From NCBI GenBank assembly GCA_000004985.1, contig GG738885.1: a stretch of 64,000 nt of DNA. One strand, written 5' to 3'. The position numbers and the translations under genes were made by a program. Numbering within the stretch: the stretch's first letter is position 1; every line of letters begins with the position of its first letter. Positions 793 through 60,939 of this stretch are shown here, piece after piece. Below the pieces are notes generated by a model. That model did not search any database and was not told the DNA's origin. It saw nothing but the letters and a program-made list of their open reading frames with translations. The stretch is from Naegleria gruberi (Eukaryota).

Positions 793-1548
793 TTAACAAT
801 AATAAATTTCATCCTCAATAAACTCATAAATCAAAGATTCCAATCCTTTCCACTTTGATTTGAGTTTCAATCTTCTCTTGAGTGCAGAGAATTTATCACT
901 CAAAATCTTTACAATGCAAACAGTTAATGGTTGAGTGGATTCTTCATCGTGATTATCTGGACACCACATTTCTAAAAAATCTTCACTTCGTTCCACTAGC
1001 TCAATAATATCGTCATCATTGAAGTGGTTTCGTCTTGCTTCGATGAGTTCAATAGATTTTGAGAATAATTTTGGATATTGTAAAATTCTTGACAAGTCCA
1101 ATAATTTGAAGATAAATTCCAAATAATTGGTTCCTTCAATAACTGATGACAAGTCACAAGTCCAAATGTCGTACATTAGTTTGAGAGTTGTTTCCAATGC
1201 TTGACAATTTAAAGTCTTTTCACCTTGACTCATTTCATTCTTGAAGCATAATTTTACAATATCCAATGGTTTTGTATCGTCGTGGGCACTATTGGAAAGT
1301 TGCTTTCTAATAGTTTCAGAATAACTCGATAACACATCCTTATGGAGGACCAAGTTGGTCTTTCCTATCTGAATCTTTAAATCACTCGATTCCTCAATGT
1401 TAAATAGTTTGTTAATTTCTACTGGGTCAGAAATTTGTTCATTGTGTGAAATTTCATTCATCATGGTCAATTCATACACTCTACAAGTTCCTTTGAAAAG
1501 ATTTGGAAGTTTGCTTTTAGTTTCTGGTTTTTCATCGCTGTGTAATTC
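793..1548 (-). CDS. BTB/POZ + BACK-like domain segment; probable 3' part of the RCC1 gene upstream (RCBTB/IBtk-like architecture)
   Basis: ORF 793..1479 starts at an alternative start codon, and its frame stays open upstream to about 1548 (KTIKELHSDEKPETKSKLPNLFKGTCRVYELTMMNE...). The BTB-like core is NLVLHKDVLSSYSETIRKQL...IVKLCF. The frame joins the RCC1 ORF if the A5 run near 1546-1550 is read as A6. Confidence 0.5.
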   Translation of the reverse strand, partial: ELHSDEKPETKSKLPNLFKGTCRVYELTMMNEISHNEQISDPVEINKLFNIEESSDLKIQIGKTNLVLHKDVLSSYSETIRKQLSNSAHDDTKPLDIVKLCFKNEMSQGEKTLNCQALETTLKLMYDIWTCDLSSVIEGTNYLEFIFKLLDLSRILQYPKLFSKSIELIEARRNHFNDDDIIELVERSEDFLEMWCPDNHDEESTQPLTVCIVKILSDKFSALKRRLKLKSKWKGLESLIYEFIEDEIYYC

Positions 1549-1550
1549 CT

Positions 1551-4070
1551 TTATGGTCTTTTTGTAAAAGTTGCAAAATCTCTTTCCAATAGACAGAATC
1601 GAATGGGAGAAAGTGAAAGTCCTCTCAATTTCTCAATATTTAAACCCATTGCCTCTGGGTTGAATTCATCAAATTTCAATAAACTATTCATATTTGTCAT
1701 TTCATGAATCATTTCGTCAGATAATTTTGAAACATGTCTTACATTACTCGAGTTGACCTTTTCAAACAAATTTTCCAGCAAGGTTGTTTTTAAATTAATT
1801 AAATATCCAAAAGGAACACAAATTGACACTGTAAAAAGCATCTTGACAATATCCTTTGCCGATAACTCATTAAAAAATCGAGAATCAAATCGATCATTAT
1901 TAATGGTTGCATTAATTATAAATTGAACGTGTGAAATGTCGAAATGAACTGTCATCTTATCGAGTAAATTCAAGAAGTGAATCGTCATTGGACAGAATCT
2001 ATTCAGTAATGGCTTGAATATGTATAAATCTCCTGATTTAGTTTGAATTCGTGTAGATCTTGGTTCTATCAATACATTCGATTTTGAAAGCATTGACTGA
2101 TTATCAACCTTGTTCACATTTGAATTATTATAGAAAATTGTAAAACTCTCTCCACATGCAACCGAGTTAAAATCCAACTCTCCAACTTTCTCCTTTGGAA
2201 ATTTAACTCTTTTCAGATAATTCTGATACTCGTTATCTTGTATTCCATTAATGAATCCCAATCTTCCATCTTCATTCTTTCCACATGCAAAGAATTGATC
2301 CAGATAATTTACAAACACTGAGTGGTGATAACCACAAGTCAGGTTTTTAAAACTATTCTTTGAACTTTCGCCATCTCCAAAAGTAATAAACTTGAAAGTT
2401 GGATTTGTCACATGAGTCTTGAATGAGGATAAGGAACCAACAGAGTAAATATCAGTCCTAGATCTAGGACTGTCATTATGTGAATCTGCAGAGAATGGTC
2501 GAGGAGAACACAAATCCTGAAATAAATTTGAAGGAGAATAATTTGGATTCGAATGAAAAATGTAAATTTTCTTGGAAGAGTTTGAAATAGCCAATGTAAA
2601 ATAAATTCCACTACTCAATTGGTCCACTTTCTCATTAAGAGGAACTTTCTTAAAGAATGGAATGATTGAATTCTTTCTATACATGGTTGACCTCTTTTCT
2701 TCAGGCATTGTTGATACATCCACAACTGATGCAGCATCATTCATATCACCACCAATTCCACAACTGAAAATTTCACCATCCATTGATAAAATTGCAGCTG
2801 TGTCTATATTAAAAGAAATTGATTTGATTGGAATGTTGAAGAGTGGAATTTGTGTAAAGACTGAAATTTTAGTCTTGTGAAGAAAAAGTCCCAATTGAGC
2901 ATTTGCATTCGATCCACATACGAAAACTTCTCTTTTTGAAGTGATTATTGCAGAATTATTGAACTGACAATGAATATCATCAATATGTTGATCCTTATTC
3001 AGGTAAAAATTGACTTTTGAAAAGACAAATCGATCACTAAAATCACCCAATCCCAATTGACCATCATTATTCCTTCCCGTTGAATAAACATCCCCATTCT
3101 GAGTCACAATCATTGTGTGCTTATCTCCACATGAAACCAACTTGACATTGTACAAATTTTTCAAATTCAAATTTCTAGAAATTGTCCTCGAAGGTCTCCT
3201 CATTGGTAACATGGGTTTTCCAATACTCTCAACGAGTGGTAAGAGGTTAGTGAGATGGACCTCTCTCAGGAAATTCAATTCCAAATCTTCGTGTGGTTCC
3301 AATTCGGATTGTATATGAGAAAGTGTGGAAGGAGAAGACGAAACTCTTGGTGAGTGAATAGGTGTAATGTCTGGAACATCAGAGTCACTTCCAATCGAAT
3401 CATTACTCGAATTTAAATCGGAATTTTGACCCCTTCTATGAGTTATTGTTTTAGGAATTCCCAATTGACCGAAATCATTCCATCCAGAACAGAATAATCT
3501 TCCACCATGTGTTAAAATCATGTAATGTTTGGATCCACATGAAATTTTCTTAATTTTCTCTCCAAATGGAATTGTTTTATAATAATTCAATCGATCCCTT
3601 AATGAAATTGTCGGCAATAACGTTGCTGACTTTCCCATATAATTATCCGAATGTTGTTTTGATTTTTGCTGTTGTTGAATAAATTCCAATCTCTTTTGCT
3701 GTTCTCGAGATGTGTTGTAAATTGAGCCACACAACAGGAGTCCGTCAAATTTTCCTCTTGACGAATCTTCATAACATGTTTGATTTGCAGCTTCACTATT
3801 AGACGATTCGAAACTTTGATTTAGAGTTTGGTTTAGGTTAGTTTCCTTGTTGTTGATTTCAACACGGAGTAGTGGTGGTGTATTATCGGCATCTAGAGAA
3901 GATGCTTGACTTGTTGCTGATGAATAGGAAGAAGCATCTTCTTCATCTCCTTTCCCACAATCATTATTCGAATGAACGTTTAGAAAATTATTCGAATTCA
4001 TTAAATACCCATCATCACTATATTCCAAAACACTACTGATCGAAAGAGAAGGAACTCTTTTCTTATCCAT
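1551..4070 (-). CDS. RCC1-repeat (regulator of chromosome condensation-like) protein, N-terminal S-rich low complexity region
   Basis: 839-aa ORF with ATG at 4068-4070. Several RCC1 blades are seen directly: SCGSKHYMILTHGGRLFCSGWNDFGQLG and KLVSCGDKHTMIVTQNGDVYSTGRNNDGQLGLGDFSDR. The C-terminal 150 aa looks BTB-like. This is probably the same gene as 793..1548 (see finding). Confidence 0.8.
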   Translation of the reverse strand: MDKKRVPSLSISSVLEYSDDGYLMNSNNFLNVHSNNDCGKGDEEDASSYSSATSQASSLDADNTPPLLRVEINNKETNLNQTLNQSFESSNSEAANQTCYEDSSRGKFDGLLLCGSIYNTSREQQKRLEFIQQQQKSKQHSDNYMGKSATLLPTISLRDRLNYYKTIPFGEKIKKISCGSKHYMILTHGGRLFCSGWNDFGQLGIPKTITHRRGQNSDLNSSNDSIGSDSDVPDITPIHSPRVSSSPSTLSHIQSELEPHEDLELNFLREVHLTNLLPLVESIGKPMLPMRRPSRTISRNLNLKNLYNVKLVSCGDKHTMIVTQNGDVYSTGRNNDGQLGLGDFSDRFVFSKVNFYLNKDQHIDDIHCQFNNSAIITSKREVFVCGSNANAQLGLFLHKTKISVFTQIPLFNIPIKSISFNIDTAAILSMDGEIFSCGIGGDMNDAASVVDVSTMPEEKRSTMYRKNSIIPFFKKVPLNEKVDQLSSGIYFTLAISNSSKKIYIFHSNPNYSPSNLFQDLCSPRPFSADSHNDSPRSRTDIYSVGSLSSFKTHVTNPTFKFITFGDGESSKNSFKNLTCGYHHSVFVNYLDQFFACGKNEDGRLGFINGIQDNEYQNYLKRVKFPKEKVGELDFNSVACGESFTIFYNNSNVNKVDNQSMLSKSNVLIEPRSTRIQTKSGDLYIFKPLLNRFCPMTIHFLNLLDKMTVHFDISHVQFIINATINNDRFDSRFFNELSAKDIVKMLFTVSICVPFGYLINLKTTLLENLFEKVNSSNVRHVSKLSDEMIHEMTNMNSLLKFDEFNPEAMGLNIEKLRGLSLSPIRFCLLERDFATFTKRP

Positions 4071-4723: not shown

Positions 4724-6562
4724 ATGCAAAGAAGGTTCCAACATCAAACTCTCAAGAATTTATTCTCCGTGCTTCATCAACAACAAGATCAAATCCTGTT
4801 GAGAAAATTCTCATATTCTTCTTCAGTTTCCAATTCAGCTGAAACTAAAGTTCAACAAGACGAAACAGCAAAATGTCCTTACCACCAACAAAAACAAGAG
4901 AAAATTCTCACCTTTGATGATCTCCCTGGTCCTAAAGGTTTACCACTCGTTGGAAGTCTCTTTGATTTGATGAGAGCTTCGAATGGAATTCAAAATTATT
5001 TTTCACAACTTGTTGGTGATTATGGTAAAACTGTCAAGATCAAATTGTTGAATAAGAGAATGATCATTACACAGGATCCTGATTTGGCTAATGAAATTGC
5101 AAAACAGGATGAAGGAAGAGAAACTCTTGAACCAGGTAAGTTTTCTTCACATTGAGTTGATAATTTTAATTTGAATAGCAAGAAAATTCAAGGTTGAAAG
5201 AGGATTGCCTCAGAATCCAGTCGAATCTTACAATTATGAAGATTGGTATGATATGAGACAATTGTATAATATTGCAATGCGTAAGTTGACTATTTATTGA
5301 GATTGCCAAAATTTATATGGATAGGTCCTGAATTTGTTCAAAATGTTATCATTCCACAATTAACTGAACTCAATAGTGAATTTTTACAATATCTCACCAA
5401 AAATTTGGCCTATGACAAGGAGAAGGATCATTTCGAATTACAAAATGGAACAAGAGTTGTCAATAGATATACTTTCAATTCTGTTGTAAAGGTTTTCATG
5501 GGTGCCAAGATGACCGATGAAGCTGCCTCAAAGCTCTCTTACTCAATTGATGAATTTGTTAATTTGGTTGTTGTGTTTTTGGATAACATTTTGAAACTCC
5601 AAAATGGATCTCAACTTTACAAATTATTTAAAACCAAGGAATATCGTGATATGGAAAATGGATATGAATTGGGATTGAATAGATCAAAGGAATGTATTGA
5701 CATGTTTGATAAGGGTGAATATGCTGGAAAACCAAGAATGAAAGAACTCATTGAAGAAAGAGCTTCAAAATTCCAAGATAACAAGGATAAGCAACTCTAT
5801 GTAAATGTTGTGTTGAGCTCCTTCTTGATGGCTGGTGTTGATATCACTGCTCGTACCATAGTAGGTGAGTATTCTTTGTATTGAGAATTTTTCAATAATT
5901 CAATTTTAATGTGTTTGTTGTTTTGTGGAATAGTCTTAATGTATAGATTGGCCACTGAGAAGGAATTCCAAGAGAAACTCTACCAAGAAACTGTTGAAGT
6001 ATTTGGAGAACCAACATTGGATGAATTGACTTCAGAAAATGGTCTCACAATCACTCCAGAAACTTTGAAGAAACTCAAGTTATGCAGAGCCTTTGCAGAT
6101 GAAAGTTTGAGATTGAATCACATCATTAAATCGACAAGCACCAGACAATTGAGTAAGGATATTGTTGCTAGTGGAATTAAGATTGAACAGGGCACAACTG
6201 TCATGTTCTTGGAAGATCCTGCCAGGTATCAACAATGGGTTAAAAAGAGTACTGAATTCATTCCTGAAAGACATGAAAGAGGTTCTGACCTTGCCGTTCC
6301 AAAGACATTCTCTGGACCTTTCGGTAAAGGAGCTAGAAAATGTCCTGGTGAAAGAGTTGCCTTTACTGAAATTTACTTTGCCTTGATTAATCTTGCAAGA
6401 CATTTCAGATTATCTCACTCTAATGGAAACACTCTTCCTCCACTCAATGAAACCACAACTTTGGGGTATTTGGATATGAATAAGTATCATTTGTATTTCA
6501 AACCAAGAGAGCATTTGGCTGAATACTTTGAACAATTAAAGAAGACCCAAGCAAAACATTAA
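4724..6562 (+). CDS. cytochrome P450 (mitochondrial-presequence-like N-terminus), 4 exons
   Basis: Exons are 4724..5135, 5179..5280, 5325..5864 and 5934..6562. All junctions are phase-consistent GTAAGT/GTGAGT...AG. Exon 2 carries the C-helix WxxxR motif (EDWYDMRQ). Exon 4 carries ExxR (ADESLRL) and the heme-Cys loop FGKGARKCPGERVAFTEI. Confidence 0.9.
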
Positions 6563-14371: not shown

Positions 14372-16624
14372 ATGACCTTTCTAACACCAACTGTTGATAA
14401 CAGTACCACATCTACTCGAAAGAATAGTACACTTCTGACCCCTCCTCCAACTGGAACCAAATCACCTTCTTCCACAACACATTCAGCCACCAATCCAACA
14501 AACCAAGACGAAACTCGATCAGCAGTCTCTAAAGCAGGAGGAAATTCTTCTATTGAAAATGGCAACATTAAGAAGGAATTATACATGAAGAGAAAGAGAA
14601 TCACATTACTGAGCAGTATCTTGGGTTTAATATTTGCAGTATTAGCTGTTGCTGTTCTGTCACCAATCATTGTCATTGTCATTCACTCATTGGAAAAACA
14701 GAGAAAAGATGGATATGTAGAGAGAGTGAAACAGATTGCAATTACTGCAGAGCTGCTAATCAGAAAACAAGTTGAAGTTTCGTTTGGTTCTCTACAAATT
14801 ATGAGTCAAGTCGCCCAAGAATGGAATTATTCGATTAATTTGGAAAGATTTAACAATTTTGCTTCAAGGTTGACCAAAGATTTTCCAGAATTGAATACTT
14901 TTGAGTATGCTCTGACGGATGAGTTTGTTTTGGAGTATATTTATCCATTGGCAGGATTGGAATTTATGATTGGACATCACATGGGTCTTAATACGTATGT
15001 AATTTTTACAATTTTTGTAATTTTTTAATTTTTTAAATATTTTGTAATTTATTTAATAATATTTAATAATATTTAATTTGAAATTGTAAAATATTGAATG
15101 AAATTGTATTGAAATAGACCTGCTCATACAACAATTATTAAGGAAGCAGTTGCTACGAAAAAGACAAAAATCTTTGGACCAATCAATATGATCAATTTGG
15201 ATCCTAATTCTGTGGCTGTAATTGCTCAGAATCCAATTTACTATCCGAATGGAACTTTCTTTGGTTTGAGTGTGGAACTGTTCGATTTTATGAAACTATT
15301 CGAAACTATAGATTTACACACAGTTCTATCAGGATTCCAATACCAACTATTCGAATATGCTCAAAATCAAATCTTTATGCAAAATCTCAATGGAACCAAA
15401 TCAGGAACCATTGGAACTATAGGAAATCCCAATGTGAAATATTTAACAGATTCAATCGAACGAAACATGACAGTCATGAACAGTAATTGGAAAATTATCC
15501 TTCGTCCAATTGATGGCTGGGACACTGACAGCTTACTCTGGCTTGAAGTCTGCATTGGCATTGCAGTTGCCTTAGTAGTTTTCATTCTCGTCATTTTAGG
15601 AGTCAACCAATTGGTTCAAGATTATTTCAGAAAGAAGGAATATCAATATATTCAAGATAGTTTGGAAATGAAAGTTAAGGAGAGAACGAAAGATTTGGCT
15701 AGCTCACATTCTCAATTATTGTTGCTTTTGGATAGAATTTCATTTGAGGAGCAGAGAACGAAAAAGATTATGAATTCTCTGGAAGATTCGGTTATCACGA
15801 TTGATTCGTCAGCTATGGGAAAGATTATACATTCGAATAATGCATTTTTTAAGAATTTTGGATATACTGATTCGGATTTGATTAGAAATTTGTCAATTTC
15901 AACTCTTTTACCAAAGTTAAATTTGAGTACGATTGTGACAGAGTTGAAGAATCAAGCCGATTTGAAAGTAGCCGAAACTACTGCCAATACAAAGACAGGA
16001 GTTTCGCTCAATGTGAAAGTTTCCATCTCCATGAGTCAAATTTACAATCAACCTTCCAATAATCAACAAAATTCGATTGGTCAACCAGGAATTCCAACCA
16101 TTACCATCACAGACGAAAAGGAAAGAGAAATGGCAACCATCAGAGAATGCAAACTCCAAACTGTCTACGTTATCCTAATCCACATCCTCGACACAATCAT
16201 CCATCCAACAGGTTTCAACGAACACTATCAACTCACCAACCAAATCACAAATGAATTTCTGGAATTTTTCACAGATATTGAAAATCGAAAGAAATTTAAA
16301 GAATTTTGCTCGACTGAAAGAAACGATGAAAATATTTGCTTTTTGGAAGATGTGGAATTTTACAAAAGTTTGGGGAATATTCAAGAAAGAGTTACAATGC
16401 AAGAGGAAATGTATAACAAGTATCTTAAGGCTAATTCTCCAAAACAGTTGAATATTTCAAAGAAACAATTAGAAACTCATTCGTTCAAGATTAGTCGAGG
16501 TTTGGGAGAATTTGAACTGTTTGACGAGTTGGAGAGGACTGTTATCTTGACAGTTTCAATGGATAGCTTTAAGAGATGGCAAGAGAAGGAGAGAAGAAAT
16601 GAGGATCATCTCAATTATCTGTAA
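14372..16624 (+). CDS. two-TM receptor-like protein: extracellular CHASE-like sensor domain, cytoplasmic PAS-like region and C-terminal RGS domain; 2 exons
   Basis: Exon 1 is 14372..14994 and exon 2 is 15118..16624 (donor GTATGT at 14995, acceptor AG at 15116-17, phase 2/1 consistent). TM1 is ITLLSSILGLIFAVLAVAVLSPIIVIVIH. An ectodomain of about 270 aa follows (...KIFGPINMINLDPNSVAVIAQNPIYYPNGTFFGLSVELF...). TM2 is LLWLEVCIGIAVALVVFILVILGV. The RGS signature is NEFLEFFTDIENRKKFKEFCSTERNDENICFLEDVEFYKSL. Confidence 0.65.
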
Positions 16625-16727
16625 TTTTATAAATTCTATTCGAATCCATTCGAAACTCTTTTCAAAGGTTACACATGGTACTCAGACGTTGTACGCACTG
16701 TATGAACTTTTTAAAGTTACAAAAAAA

Positions 16728-17291
16728 ATGCAACAACTTCTCCATACGTTATCCAAACACTTGCCAAGGAAACAAATCTTTCACTCATTGAACGATCAAA
16801 CAAACGTTCTAATTTTGGAAAGATTCAATTTATTATCTTTTGAAAATGGACCTGGTTTAGTGTTACATCGATTTGTGCATTCAGATCCTGATAGAGGGTA
16901 TCATGATCATCCGTGGAGGTTTGGCATTAGTTTGATATTAAGTGGTTCGTATAGGGAAATTAAAGTTTCGCATTCGAATAAAAAGATGAGTGAGAAGGAG
17001 TTTCGTGCAGGAAGTGTTAATTATTTCAGTGGGAAGGATTATCACCGAGTCTTGCTGAAACCTCAACCGAATGAGAATAAGGAAATCAAGGAATTGGATG
17101 AAAATAATGAGGAAATTGTGGACGAATGTGAGGTGTGGACTTTATTCTTTCATTGGAAACGAGTTAAAATGTGGGGATTCCTCAAAGAGGAAGAAACCTC
17201 TCCGGATGGATGGAAATTCAATCAATACAGCAAGACAGTGGAAGATATGGATGGTGCTTGGTGGAAGGATGAAATCAAAGTAAAGAATTAA
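16728..17291 (+). CDS. hypothetical small protein (possible cupin-like His cluster HSDPDRGYHDHPW)
   Basis: ORF 16599..17291 with its first in-frame ATG at 16728 (MQQLLHTLSKH...). No confident family assignment. Confidence 0.4.
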   Translation: MQQLLHTLSKHLPRKQIFHSLNDQTNVLILERFNLLSFENGPGLVLHRFVHSDPDRGYHDHPWRFGISLILSGSYREIKVSHSNKKMSEKEFRAGSVNYFSGKDYHRVLLKPQPNENKEIKELDENNEEIVDECEVWTLFFHWKRVKMWGFLKEEETSPDGWKFNQYSKTVEDMDGAWWKDEIKVKN

Positions 17292-33282: not shown

Positions 33283-35032
33283 TTAAGCATTCTTATGGGT
33301 GGGAGAGAGGAAAAGTTGAGGATATTCTCTGTCTGTTCTTGATTTTTTCAGGAGATTAAATTGTTCCTTTGATATTCTCCTCTCCATTAATAGACCATTC
33401 TGTGAAACTGCCTCCAAAAGGAAATCAAAATCTAACTGGAAATTATATGGAATTATTGGAAATATGCCTGCATCTCTCTTTAAAATATTAAAGAGAAATT
33501 CTCTGTCAAAGTTGTAATTGTAAAAGCGATAATGTAAAATGGATGGCATTTCATCTACCAATTCTAACACCAAAGAATTATCATTTTTCAACCTTTTAGA
33601 AATGTTTCTGTAAGAATTAGGGCTAATTTTTACAACTTGTTTGACAAAATCTCTGTCATCCTTTAATTCATAAGAGGCATACTCAAATAAATCAAACCGA
33701 TCTCCTGCATCTTTGGGAGGATTTCTTAATGCTTCCAAAATGGCTGTTCTATCAGAATGTAAATGAGGTAAATGAATTAATGCTGCTCCATTCTGTCTTA
33801 TTGAATCCATGGCAATATCCAAATCATTAAGTATATCCTTGTGAGCAAAGTGGATGGCATATCCACAATTGGATATTGCAATTCTTACAATCTCCTTATC
33901 AGCTCTCAATTCTTCATTTGACAAATTCAAGCAATTCTCCCCTCTTTTTCAGGGCTAAAACTGCCAGTTCTCTATCACTTCTCAATTCTTCTGATAAAAG
34001 TTCGTACGTTATCGGATTGAGATTAATCAACTCCCTCATAAAATCCTTATCATTGCATAGATTATCAGGTAAATTATTGAATGGAAGAGTGCCCAGGGTT
34101 ACCAAACTTTTTTTGAGAAATTCCTTGTCTCCTTGTAACTCCTTACTTAAACAATTAATGAAATATGGATTTGATTCAAGAGAAGCAATTAAAATCTCTC
34201 TGTCATTATAAAATTGCTTTACCATTTGTGAATCAATTGAGTAGCCAGTCTTACAAGCTGCTAACAGCAATTCCCTATCTTGCTTAAATTTATCAGTACT
34301 GATTTGATTCAACAACGAACCATTGATCTTGATTGCTTCATAAACTACATCTCTATCACGTTGCAAATTTGTTGGTAAATAAGGTAGAACATGAGGAAAC
34401 GCCTTCACTATTTCTATGGCTAGATCCTTATCTTTAACATCTCTGGCCTCTCTAGGATGCCTCAGAAGATACTCTTTTACAAACTCTTTATCACGAAGAA
34501 AGGCAAGAGGAATTGATCCTCCACTCCTCACAGATAACAATCCAATTTCTCTATCGCTGTCAAACATGCTTAATGAGTCCAATATTTCACCATTTGCCTG
34601 CACTAACATCTTAACCTTCTCTCTATCCTTAATAATACTTGCTGGCAAATGATCTGCAACTTTGGTATCATACTTGACCATCTCCAAGACAATTTCAAAA
34701 TCTTTGAGAAACTCCGAGCTTGCCCAGTCAAATACAGGACCAACCTTAGCAGCATGTAAGACCAATTCTCGATCCTTCTTCAATGAATCATTAAGGAATT
34801 CAGGAAAGATTGTATGTCCCTCCTCAAAGGCTCTCATCAAGACTTGCCTATCATCGTAGAATTCTATTGGGAATTTGTTTGATTCAGATGCAAAGAATTC
34901 ATCAATATGCTCCAGATACTTTTTCATACTCTTAGCTTGAAGTAGGAAGCGAGCTTGTAACTTGTCCAGTAAACAATTACTCTTCATACCACTCCAATCT
35001 TCATCCAATTGTAATACAACATTTTCCGACAT
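33283..35032 (-). CDS. DUF4116-repeat protein (apparent 1-nt frameshift at a G-run near 33935-33940)
   Basis: ORFs 33914..35032 and 33283..33930 both carry reiterated ~35-aa units of the DUF4116 type (DRELVLHAAKVGP...FLKD, ELRSDRELAVLALKKRGELL, ELRADKEIVRIAISNCGYAIHFAHKD). Removing one G from gaggggag joins the frames (…ALKKRENCLNLSNEELRADKEIV…). Confidence 0.55.
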
Positions 35033-51719: not shown

Positions 51720-51792
51720 TGCTGACGGACGGGATCGAACCGGCGACCAATGGCTTATTAGACCAACGCTCTACCGACTGAGCTACGCCAGC
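51720..51792 (-). tRNA. tRNA-Ile (anticodon AAT)
   Basis: The minus-strand read is GCTGGCG-TA-GCTC-AGTCGGTA-GAGC-G-TTGGT-CTAATAA-GCCAT-TGGTC-GCCGG-TTCGATC-CCGTC-CGTCAGC-A. The D-arm and T-loop (TTCGATC) are canonical. The acceptor has one G-U pair and the T-stem has one mismatch. Confidence 0.8.
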
Positions 51793-60865: not shown

Positions 60866-60939
60866 GCGCCGTTAGATCAGTTGGTTAGATCGTCAGCTTT
60901 ACACGCTGAAGGTCAAGGGTTCGACTCCCTTACGGCGTA
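60866..60939 (+). tRNA. tRNA-Val (anticodon TAC)
   Basis: GCGCCGT-TA-GATC-AGTTGGTTA-GATC-G-TCAGC-TTTACAC-GCTGA-AGGTC-AAGGG-TTCGACT-CCCTT-ACGGCGT-A. The anticodon and T stems are perfect. Positions 1:72 form a G:U pair. A T5 run starts 3 nt downstream. Confidence 0.85.

What the first reader, a model, noticed from the sequence alone, without database searches (positions are those of the whole stretch)
1535..1560. RCC1 and BTB ORFs are one RCBTB/IBtk-like gene split by a homopolymer frameshift
The RCC1 ORF stops (…FATFTKRP*) inside an A5 run. The downstream BTB ORF frame is open all the way back to that run (…FYKKTIKELHSDEKPETKSK…). Reading A6 instead of A5 fuses them into …ERDFATFTKKTIKELHSDEKPE…BTB. 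RCC1+BTB is a known combined architecture (RCBTB1/2, IBtk).
Basis: partly seen in the sequence, partly recalled or inferred. Interest (0 to 1): 0.5.

Follow-up and report, generated by a model that had tools for sequence, protein, structure and literature searches.

The report
Frame-broken RCC1–BTB gene in Naegleria
The two reading frames are parts of one Naegleria gruberi gene that public databases already list as a single protein, and the break between them is most likely a one-base slip in the draft sequence or in one allele, which is an annotation detail rather than new biology.

Summary
On the minus strand an 839-aa RCC1 ORF (4070..1554) stops at TAA 1553..1551. The BTB frame is open from 1632 to 796. 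Adding one A gives a 1092-aa ORF.

The window is Naegleria gruberi. The public model XP_002674290.1 (NAEGRDRAFT_51067, 1038 aa) already joins the ORFs by a predicted 161-nt intron (1742..1582), so "one gene" is not new.

That intron looks like a gene-caller workaround:
- It is stop-free in the RCC1 frame; only 0.7% of shuffles are.
- Its codon usage and GC match the exons.
- It ends in AAG.
- Removing it leaves 47 aa between anchors that are 106 and 109 aa apart in two orthologs; the A6 reading gives 101.

Both orthologs read continuously across the junction. A conserved KLPNLFK motif lies upstream of the first ATG of the BTB frame, so that ORF cannot stand alone. There is no canonical slippery heptamer and no downstream RNA structure.

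A one-base deficit is most likely. Sequencing error versus real allele needs reads. The resemblance to RCBTB/IBtk is in domain order only, and the BTB call is borderline. Low interest.

The parts
1554..4070 (-). RCC1 reading frame, 839 codons, starting at ATG 4070..4068. This is the N-terminal and propeller part of NAEGRDRAFT_51067.
   Evidence: ORF list. 100% identical to XP_002674290.1 over the shared part. Pfam PF25390, PF00415 and PF13540 all pass their cut-offs.
2121..3164 (-). Best Pfam RCC1-like domain stretch (residues 303-650 of the 839-aa ORF).
   Evidence: PF25390 WD40_RLD, E 5.2e-46, 158.1 bits against a cut-off of 150. Coordinates converted from residue numbers.
1551..1553 (-). 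TAA stop that ends the RCC1 frame, three codons after the A-run.
1559..1563 (-). A5 run (TTTTT on the + strand). It is the most likely place of the 1-nt deficit. Reading A6 fuses the frames into a 1092-aa ORF.
   Evidence: position and fusion. (longest homopolymer in the zone where both frames are open).
1554..1632 (-). Zone in which both the RCC1 frame and the BTB frame are open. The frame switch must lie here if it is an indel.
   Evidence: the upstream stop of the BTB frame is TGA at 1635..1633; the RCC1 stop is at 1553.
1582..1742 (-). Intron of the public gene model (161 nt, GTAAGA...GGAAAG). Judged here to be probably spurious, that is, coding sequence.
   Evidence: Splicing it out reproduces XP_002674290.1 exactly. 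Stop-free in the RCC1 frame in only 36 of 5000 dinucleotide shuffles. Stop-free codon-usage score +5.5 against 6.2±2.9 for the gene's own exons and -7.4±4.1 for stop-free shuffles. GC 31.7% against 22.7% in eight short candidate introns.
796..1632 (-). C-terminal (BTB-like) reading frame, with stop TAA at 795..793. It has no ATG before 1464.
   Evidence: Homologous to the C-termini of P0002 and P0003.
1492..1512 (-). KLPNLFK motif (KLPN-FK invariant in all three orthologs). It lies upstream of the first ATG of the BTB frame, so this frame must be joined to upstream coding sequence.
   Evidence: Alignments. Coordinates.
1270..1413 (-). Match to the first half of the Pfam BTB/POZ model (profile positions 2-49 of 110).
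   Evidence: PF00651, 19.4-19.6 bits, just under the cut-off of 20.5. The orthologs score 24.9 and 22.7 bits.

Best explanation
The two ORFs are one Naegleria gruberi gene, NAEGRDRAFT_51067 / XP_002674290.1. It encodes a low-complexity N-terminus, an RCC1-like propeller, a poorly conserved linker that the low-confidence model predicts to be helical, and a divergent BTB-like C-terminal module. By analogy with other RCC1-BTB proteins it may act as a substrate adaptor or scaffold; that function is inferred, not tested.

In the deposited sequence the reading frame is broken by a deficit of one base somewhere in 1554-1632. The A5 run at 1559-1563 is the most likely place. The 161-nt intron of the public model (1742..1582) is most likely a gene-predictor device that steps over this break. 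The intact product would then be about 1092 aa, not 1038 aa.

My split within this reading:
- About two thirds: the missing base is a base-count error of the draft Sanger assembly.
- About one third: it is a real, recent or allelic loss-of-function mutation.

Shown: the frames, the fusion, the coding signature of the 'intron', and the continuity of the orthologs. Inferred: the exact site, the cause of the break, and the function.
For: 1. One gene.
- Orthologs P0002 (N. lovaniensis) and P0003 carry RCC1 and BTB in one protein.
- The only intron of P0002 is 60 nt long at residue 230. The rest of that gene, including the junction region, is one ORF.
- The P0003 contig is one continuous ORF.
- The BTB module has only three homologs at E <= 1e-10 among 1.84 billion representatives. 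All are C-termini of these RCC1 proteins.
- KLPNLFK lies upstream of the first ATG of the BTB frame.

2. Not an intron.
- The annotated intron is stop-free in the RCC1 frame, as are only 0.7% of dinucleotide shuffles.
- Given that it is stop-free, its codon usage scores +5.5. That is like the gene's exons (6.2±2.9 and 7.1±2.1). It differs from stop-free shuffles (-7.4±4.1; 0.07% reach it) and from natural short open stretches (-1.7±4.8; 5% reach it).
- Its GC content is 31.7%, like the exons, against 22.7% for eight short candidate introns in the window.
- Its acceptor is AAG. The eight candidate introns end in YAG and hit a stop within 1-24 codons if read through.
- The spacing between the anchors LK... 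and KLPNLFK is 101 aa with A6. It is 106 and 109 aa in the orthologs and 47 aa in the spliced model.
- The ortholog HMM aligns the fused protein as one collinear domain.

3. Error is plausible. The downstream frame is intact for about 278 codons with normal codon usage. A second frame break exists in the same 64 kb, which fits a draft-level indel rate.
Against: - The linker segment that the intron would remove is not significantly similar to the orthologs (z = -0.7 and -0.3).
- The ortholog HMM favours the fused protein by only 2.9 bits (544.8 against 541.9). Homology therefore does not decide between the fused and the spliced forms.
- The annotated intron has legal GT-AG ends and restores the frame exactly.
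- The N. lovaniensis intron has no counterpart in N. gruberi, so a gruberi-specific intron is not implausible in principle.
- My candidate-intron set was found by searching only for GTRAGT and GTATGT donors. The donor comparison is therefore biased.
- No independent N. gruberi reads or transcripts could be reached. A5 versus A6 is untested.
- Sanger chemistry rarely miscounts a run of five.
Confidence: 0.75

Rival explanations
1. The public annotation is right. A genuine 161-nt spliceosomal intron (1742..1582, GTAAGA...AAAG) joins the frames. The gene is intact, the protein is 1038 aa, and there is no frameshift.
For: GT-AG ends. Removal reproduces XP_002674290.1 and restores the frame. The length lies within the range of candidate introns in the window (43-155 nt). 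Intron positions in this gene are not conserved between species. The removed linker is poorly conserved, and the HMM score is nearly the same as for the fused form.
Against: The segment is stop-free in frame (0.7% of shuffles). It has exon-like codon usage and exon-like GC. It has an AAG acceptor, unlike the YAG of the eight other candidates. Splicing leaves 47 aa where the orthologs have 106 and 109. An old intron should not carry a frame-specific coding signature.
Confidence: 0.12
2. This is a sub-case of the indel reading. The A5 is correct and the frameshift is a real, recent or heterozygous mutation in strain NEG-M. This allele then makes an 839-aa RCC1 protein without the BTB module, and the BTB frame is an untranslated remnant.
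For: Sanger consensus seldom miscounts five bases (general knowledge). The literature treats N. gruberi as heterozygous and diploid (PMC9928731). A second frame break in a DUF4116 gene in the same window needs a 1-nt loss or a 2-nt gain and is not at a long homopolymer. Real disruptions therefore may occur.
Against: The downstream frame shows no decay over about 278 codons and keeps the residues invariant among the orthologs. The event would have to be very young or confined to one allele. The gene is retained intact in two other Naegleria lineages.
Confidence: 0.27
3. Programmed recoding. A -1 ribosomal slip of tRNA-Lys on A-AAA-AG, or transcriptional slippage on the A-run, produces the fused RCC1-BTB protein from an A5 template alongside a truncated RCC1 form.
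For: A -1 slip of the P-site tRNA-Lys from AAA (1562..1560) to the overlapping AAA would give exactly ...FTKKTIK... (read from the sequence). The stop follows closely.
Against: A AAA AGA is not an X XXY YYZ heptamer. The 119 nt downstream fold worse than shuffles (-9.1 kcal/mol, z = +1.45). The orthologs have plain continuous ORFs. Five A's is shorter than known transcriptional slippage tracts (general knowledge).
Confidence: 0.02
4. Two independent adjacent genes: an RCC1 protein and a separate small BTB protein.
For: Two ORFs in different frames. An in-frame ATG exists at 1464.
Against: Only 86 nt separate the stop from that ATG. The KLPNLFK motif shared with the orthologs lies upstream of the ATG. 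No stand-alone homolog of the module exists in 1.84 billion representatives. The orthologs are fused.
Confidence: 0.02

Closest known systems
XP_002674290.1 / EFC41546.1 / D2VNR7_NAEGR (NAEGRDRAFT_51067), 'predicted protein', Naegleria gruberi
   Same: It is this locus. Splicing out 1742..1582 from the window reproduces its 1038 aa exactly.
   Different: The public model drops 54 codons (VRHVSKLSDEMIHEM...CLLE) as an intron. I argue these are coding and that the true product is about 1092 aa with a 1-nt correction.
XP_044554319.1 (C9374_012677), 'BTB domain-containing protein', Naegleria lovaniensis, and the Logan contig protein P0003 (SRR29240419)
   Same: These are orthologs: 43% and 36% identity over the RCC1 part and 34-35% over the C-terminal module. 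They have the same order of RCC1 propeller, linker and BTB, and the same KLPN-FK and C-terminal EE-YY motifs.
   Different: They are continuous across the junction. Their BTB match passes the Pfam cut-off (24.9 and 22.7 bits). The N. lovaniensis gene has a 60-nt intron at residue 230 that N. gruberi lacks.
RCBTB1/RCBTB2 (animal RCC1- and BTB-domain proteins) and IBtk
   Same: Domain order, with an RCC1-like propeller followed by BTB in one polypeptide. That this is the architecture of those proteins comes from general knowledge. A clear RCC1+BTB(+BACK) protein of this kind, P0049, was among the hits.
   Different: No specific sequence relationship was found. The C-terminal module finds no RCBTB or IBtk protein. 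Profile comparison with P0049 aligns only the 24-residue 'AHK.ILAS.S' core (E 0.054). The Naegleria protein is about twice as long as P0049, the 630-aa RCC1+BTB protein that stood in for this class. It has a roughly 250-aa linker, no ankyrin repeats and only one detectable BTB.
Gene-predictor 'frameshift-bridging introns' in draft eukaryotic assemblies
   Same: A legal GT-AG pair with a length not divisible by 3 is placed inside otherwise coding sequence so that two frames join. A frame error in the underlying sequence of the same kind was corrected manually in a related heterolobosean: a single-A miscount in a run of 10 A's in a Creneidae sp. Trinity transcript (bioRxiv 10.64898/2026.08.18.745565).
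   Different: Here it is inferred from sequence statistics and ortholog spacing, not yet from reads.

Membership tests
RCC1-like domain (RLD) proteins | Tandem RCC1 repeats that form the propeller, with Pfam PF25390, PF00415 and PF13540 above their gathering scores. | tested here: met
   PF25390 158.1 bits (cut-off 150), PF13540 101.5 (22), PF00415 94.4 (21.7).
BTB/POZ domain | Match to PF00651 above the gathering score of 20.5 bits. | tested here: inconclusive
   N. gruberi scores 19.4-19.6 bits, just below the cut-off. The orthologs score 24.9 and 22.7 bits, above it. Only the first half of the model is matched (positions 2-51 of 110). The only PDB profile hit is a ZBTB17/BCL6 BTB chain at E 0.1.
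BTB/POZ domain | The BTB fold (three-stranded sheet plus a helical bundle). | tested here: inconclusive
   The AlphaFold models are of low confidence: mean pLDDT 49 for the N. gruberi module and 37 for full-length P0002. Foldseek against the PDB found nothing at E <= 0.001; SPOP and NPR1 appear only at E 0.4-2.
RCBTB1/2 | RCC1 propeller followed by BTB in one polypeptide. | tested here: met
   This order is seen in the orthologs and in the fused or spliced N. gruberi product.
RCBTB1/2 | Specific sequence relationship (orthology) to RCBTB. | tested here: not met
   The BTB module retrieves only three Naegleria proteins. No protein named RCBTB is among the best 120 hits of the RCC1 part.
IBtk | N-terminal ankyrin repeats plus RCC1 plus two BTB domains (architecture from general knowledge). 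| tested here: not met
   Pfam finds no ankyrin repeats and only a single weak BTB match.
Programmed -1 ribosomal frameshift site | Slippery heptamer X XXY YYZ in the zero frame. | tested here: not met
   The zero frame reads ACA AAA AGA, so the heptamer is A AAA AGA and the YYZ part fails (read).
Programmed -1 ribosomal frameshift site | Stable stimulatory RNA structure a few nucleotides downstream. | tested here: not met
   Minimum free energy -9.1 kcal/mol, z = +1.45; 190 of 200 shuffles fold at least as well.
Programmed -1 ribosomal frameshift site | Conservation of the shift in orthologs. | tested here: not met
   Both orthologs are continuous ORFs at this place.
Spliceosomal intron (the one in the public model, 1742..1582) | GT...AG ends and restoration of the reading frame. 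| tested here: met
   GTAAGA...AAAG, 161 nt. The spliced translation equals XP_002674290.1.
Spliceosomal intron (the one in the public model, 1742..1582) | Non-coding character: in-frame stops, no codon bias, lower GC than the exons, YAG acceptor. | tested here: not met
   No in-frame stop (0.7% of shuffles). Codon-usage score like the exons. GC 31.7% against 22.7%. AAG acceptor.
Spliceosomal intron (the one in the public model, 1742..1582) | Spliced transcripts. | not testable with these tools
   No N. gruberi transcript or read data could be reached.

The most novel reading that the evidence does not exclude
The A5 is real and the annotated intron is really spliced. In that case a 161-nt stretch that still carries a full coding signature is removed as an intron in N. 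gruberi only. That would be a very young intron born by 'intronization' of coding sequence. It would rescue the BTB module after a frame-breaking mutation, at the cost of 54 linker residues.
Probability: 0.06. Interest if true: 0.5.

Novelty: already known. Interest (0 to 1): 0.12.

Why it matters
The matter is mainly one of curation. If the frame break is a base-count error, the reference protein XP_002674290.1 lacks 54 residues and carries a false intron. The corrected gene is a 1092-aa RCC1-BTB protein collinear with its Naegleria orthologs.

It also shows how ab initio models in the draft N. gruberi assembly can hide indels behind introns. A second frame break lies in the same 64 kb.

If the break is a real allele, it would be a small example of loss of the BTB module in a laboratory strain. 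None of this touches an open biological question.

Tried and rejected
- **Independent N. gruberi sequence.** Exact-product look-ups of the 839-aa ORF, the public model and two versions of the BTB ORF found nothing. A metagenome scan with the ortholog alignment and a DNA pattern allowing A5 or A6 found nothing.
- **Word-index homolog searches.** Two searches, with the fused C-terminus and with the BTB frame, returned nothing. They did not even return the identical public protein, so they are uninformative. The exhaustive search replaced them.
- **Similarity of the 'intron' segment to the orthologs.** Not significant, so it was not used as evidence.
- **Structure route to confirm BTB and a structured linker.** Both AlphaFold runs were of low confidence because only 3-4 sequences exist. 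The Foldseek hits were not significant.
- **Alternative small intron inside the zone where both frames are open.** The only GT (ctGTct) pairs with no AG that gives a usable join; the 71-nt option creates a TAA at the junction. A GC-AG option would be 17 nt. All are far shorter or worse than the candidate introns in the window (read). Rejected.
- **Stop-codon read-through or a ciliate-type genetic code.** Reading through the TAA in the RCC1 frame ends 30 codons later at TGA and never reaches the BTB frame. Long ORFs without TAA or TAG show the standard code. Rejected.
- **Literature.** No paper links Naegleria, RCC1 and BTB. No expression table was available.
Full report
**What is there**

On the minus strand, an ATG-started ORF of 839 codons runs from 4070 to 1554. 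It ends ...LLERDFATFTKRP and stops at TAA 1553..1551. A second frame reads ...GKRFCNFYKKTIKELHSDEKPETKSKLPNLFK... and continues to a stop at 795..793. This second frame is open from 1632 downward, its first ATG is at 1464, and the two frames are both open over 1554-1632.

The A5 run is at 1563..1559. It is the longest homopolymer in the shared zone. Inserting one A gives a single 1092-aa ORF with the junction ...FATFTKKTIKEL.... Only the coordinates it suggested for read inspection (1545-1551) are a few bases off.

**Whose DNA it is and what is already known**

The window has about 33% GC and is gene-dense with short introns. The RCC1 ORF is 100% identical to 'predicted protein [Naegleria gruberi]'. 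That entry is XP_002674290.1 / EFC41546.1 / NAEGRDRAFT_51067 / D2VNR7_NAEGR, 1038 aa.

The public model already contains both ORFs. It joins ...EKVNSSN to RFCNFYKKTIKEL... Removing window 1742..1582 (161 nt, GTAAGA...GGAAAG) and translating reproduces the public protein exactly. 'One gene' is thus the public annotation. The open question is whether the join is an intron or a frame error.

**Evidence that it is one gene**

- Two orthologs were found: N. lovaniensis XP_044554319.1 (P0002, 1178 aa) and a protein from a Logan contig of run SRR29240419 (P0003, 1022 aa). Both carry the RCC1 propeller and the C-terminal module in one chain.
- In the N. lovaniensis DNA the only intron is 60 nt long at residue 230. 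Everything downstream, including the region orthologous to the junction, is one ORF.
- P0003 is one uninterrupted ORF on its contig.
- An exhaustive HMMER search of 1.84 billion representative proteins with the 258-aa BTB frame found only three proteins at E <= 1e-10. In each the match is at the C-terminus of the RCC1 protein. No stand-alone homolog exists.
- The motif KLPNLFK (1512..1492; KLPN-FK is invariant in all three orthologs) lies upstream of the first ATG of the BTB frame. That frame therefore cannot be an independent gene.

**Intron or indel?**

Several observations argue that the annotated intron is coding sequence.

- *Open frame.* It has no stop in the RCC1 frame. Only 36 of 5000 dinucleotide shuffles of the 161 nt share this, and only 24 of 5000 for the full 189 nt up to the stop.
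- *Codon usage.* Considering only stop-free sequences, its codon-usage log-likelihood is +5.5. Same-size windows score 6.2±2.9 in the RCC1 ORF and 7.1±2.1 in the BTB frame. Stop-free shuffles score -7.4±4.1, and 0.07% reach the observed value. Natural short open stretches in the window score -1.7±4.8, and 5% reach it. A cruder frame-comparison score gave the same picture.
- *GC content.* Its GC is 31.7%, like the flanking exons (33.8% and 32.3%). Eight short candidate introns in the window pool to 22.7%.
- *Splice sites.* Those eight candidates (43-123 nt) end in YAG and meet a stop within 1-24 codons when read through. The annotated intron ends in AAG. One caution applies: I found the candidates by searching for GTRAGT and GTATGT donors, so the donor comparison is biased.
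- *Spacing.* Between the anchors LK... and KLPNLFK the orthologs have 106 and 109 residues. The A6 reading has 101 and the spliced model 47.

Two weaknesses must be stated. The removed segment is not significantly similar to the orthologs (z = -0.7 and -0.3). An HMM built from the two orthologs favours the fused protein by only 2.9 bits, although it aligns it as one collinear domain rather than two pieces. The N. lovaniensis intron also has no counterpart in N. gruberi, so a gruberi-specific intron is not absurd in principle.

Weighing these points, I put a real intron at about 0.12 and an indel at about 0.8.

**Other ways to join the frames**

- No usable small intron lies in the shared zone. 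The single GT pairs only with AGs that give 13-81-nt 'introns', and the only one of suitable length (71 nt) creates a TAA at the junction (read).
- Read-through of the TAA leads to a TGA 30 codons later in the wrong frame.
- A -1 slip of tRNA-Lys on A-AAA-AG would give the fused sequence. But A AAA AGA is not a canonical slippery heptamer. The 119 nt downstream fold worse than shuffled controls (-9.1 kcal/mol, z = +1.45). The orthologs need no shift.
- Five A's is short for transcriptional slippage (general knowledge).
- I rate programmed recoding at about 0.02.

**Error or real mutation?**

This cannot be decided here. No independent N. gruberi reads, transcripts or assemblies were reachable.

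- *For an error.* The downstream frame is intact over about 278 codons with normal codon usage and conserved residues. The gene is kept in two other lineages. A second coding frame break lies in the same 64 kb, which fits the indel rate of a draft assembly. That break is the DUF4116 pair 35032..33914 and 33930..33283, which fuses to about 583 aa by a 1-nt loss or a 2-nt gain.
- *For a real allele.* Sanger consensus rarely miscounts five bases. The strain is regarded as heterozygous (PMC9928731).
- A recent preprint describes manual correction of just such frame errors in the sequences of related heteroloboseans. It also cites a large N. gruberi RNA-seq dataset that would settle this locus (bioRxiv 10.64898/2026.08.18.745565).
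- My split is about 0.5 for error and 0.27 for a real allele.

**What the protein is**

The RCC1-like domain is secure. The BTB assignment is weaker:

- PF00651 scores 19.4-19.6 bits in N. gruberi, below the 20.5 cut-off. It scores 24.9 and 22.7 bits in the orthologs. In every case only the first half of the model is matched.
- A profile search of the PDB returns only a ZBTB17/BCL6 BTB chain at E 0.1.
- Profile comparison with a clear RCC1+BTB+BACK protein (P0049) aligns only the 'AHK.ILAS.S' core at E 0.054.
- Two AlphaFold runs were of low confidence because the family has only three members. Foldseek found nothing significant.

The C-terminal module is best called a divergent, Naegleria-specific BTB-like domain followed by helices.

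The likeness to RCBTB1/2 and IBtk is in domain order only. No RCBTB or IBtk protein was retrieved by the C-terminal module, and none is named among the hits of the RCC1 part, most of which carry no name. No ankyrin repeats and no second BTB were found. A role as a cullin-3-type adaptor or scaffold is an inference from that architecture and was not tested.

**Verdict**

It is one gene, and public databases already record it as such. The join is more likely a one-base frame break at or near the A5 run than the annotated intron. The cause of the break is unresolved. The finding is ordinary and mainly of curation value.

Noticed in passing
window 33283-35032 (-), junction at 33917-33930: Two overlapping ORFs (372 aa and 215 aa) both match Pfam DUF4116 strongly (E 4e-47 and 6e-49) but lie in different frames. 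A 1-nt deletion or a 2-nt (TC) insertion at ...GAATTTGTCAAATGAAG... fuses them into a repeat protein of about 583 aa with the repeat register preserved (...LEFVSNEELRADKEIV...). This is a second frame break in the same 64 kb, and it is not at a long homopolymer.
   Followed up: partly
window 4724-6562 (+): Three ORF segments that I took to be a cytochrome P450 gene from reading the translation; no family search was run. They are separated by short candidate introns: about 43 nt at 5136-5178, about 43 nt ending at 5324, and 69 nt at 5865-5933. The donors are GTAAGT or GTGAGT and the acceptors ATAG. I used these as local examples of real N. gruberi introns.
   Followed up: partly
window 15188-17291 (+): An ORF for an RGS- and PAS-like protein (478 aa) overlaps a 230-aa ORF with no Pfam match by 26 nt in another frame. 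A possible short intron (GTAATT...TCAAAG) starts at the stop codon. Whether the two are one gene was not examined.
   Followed up: no
L002 2001-5069 (Logan contig SRR29240419_11753): The ortholog P0003 carries a hydrophobic insert of about 65 aa (KLKYFLFLIHLFF...MKIIIG) inside an RCC1 repeat, which the other two orthologs lack. It looks like an in-frame intron read through by the automatic gene caller. The separate upstream ORF 1004-1798, which hits RCC1_2, is probably the N-terminal exon of the same gene.
   Followed up: no
window 51720-51792 (-) and 60866-60939 (+): tRNA-Ile(AAT) and tRNA-Val(TAC) genes lie between protein-coding genes.
   Followed up: no
(tool behaviour): The word-index homolog search returned no hits for the BTB frame or the fused C-terminus. 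Yet the identical public protein P0001 is in that database and was found with the RCC1 part and by the exhaustive search. A negative result from that tool on this region carries no information.
   Followed up: yes
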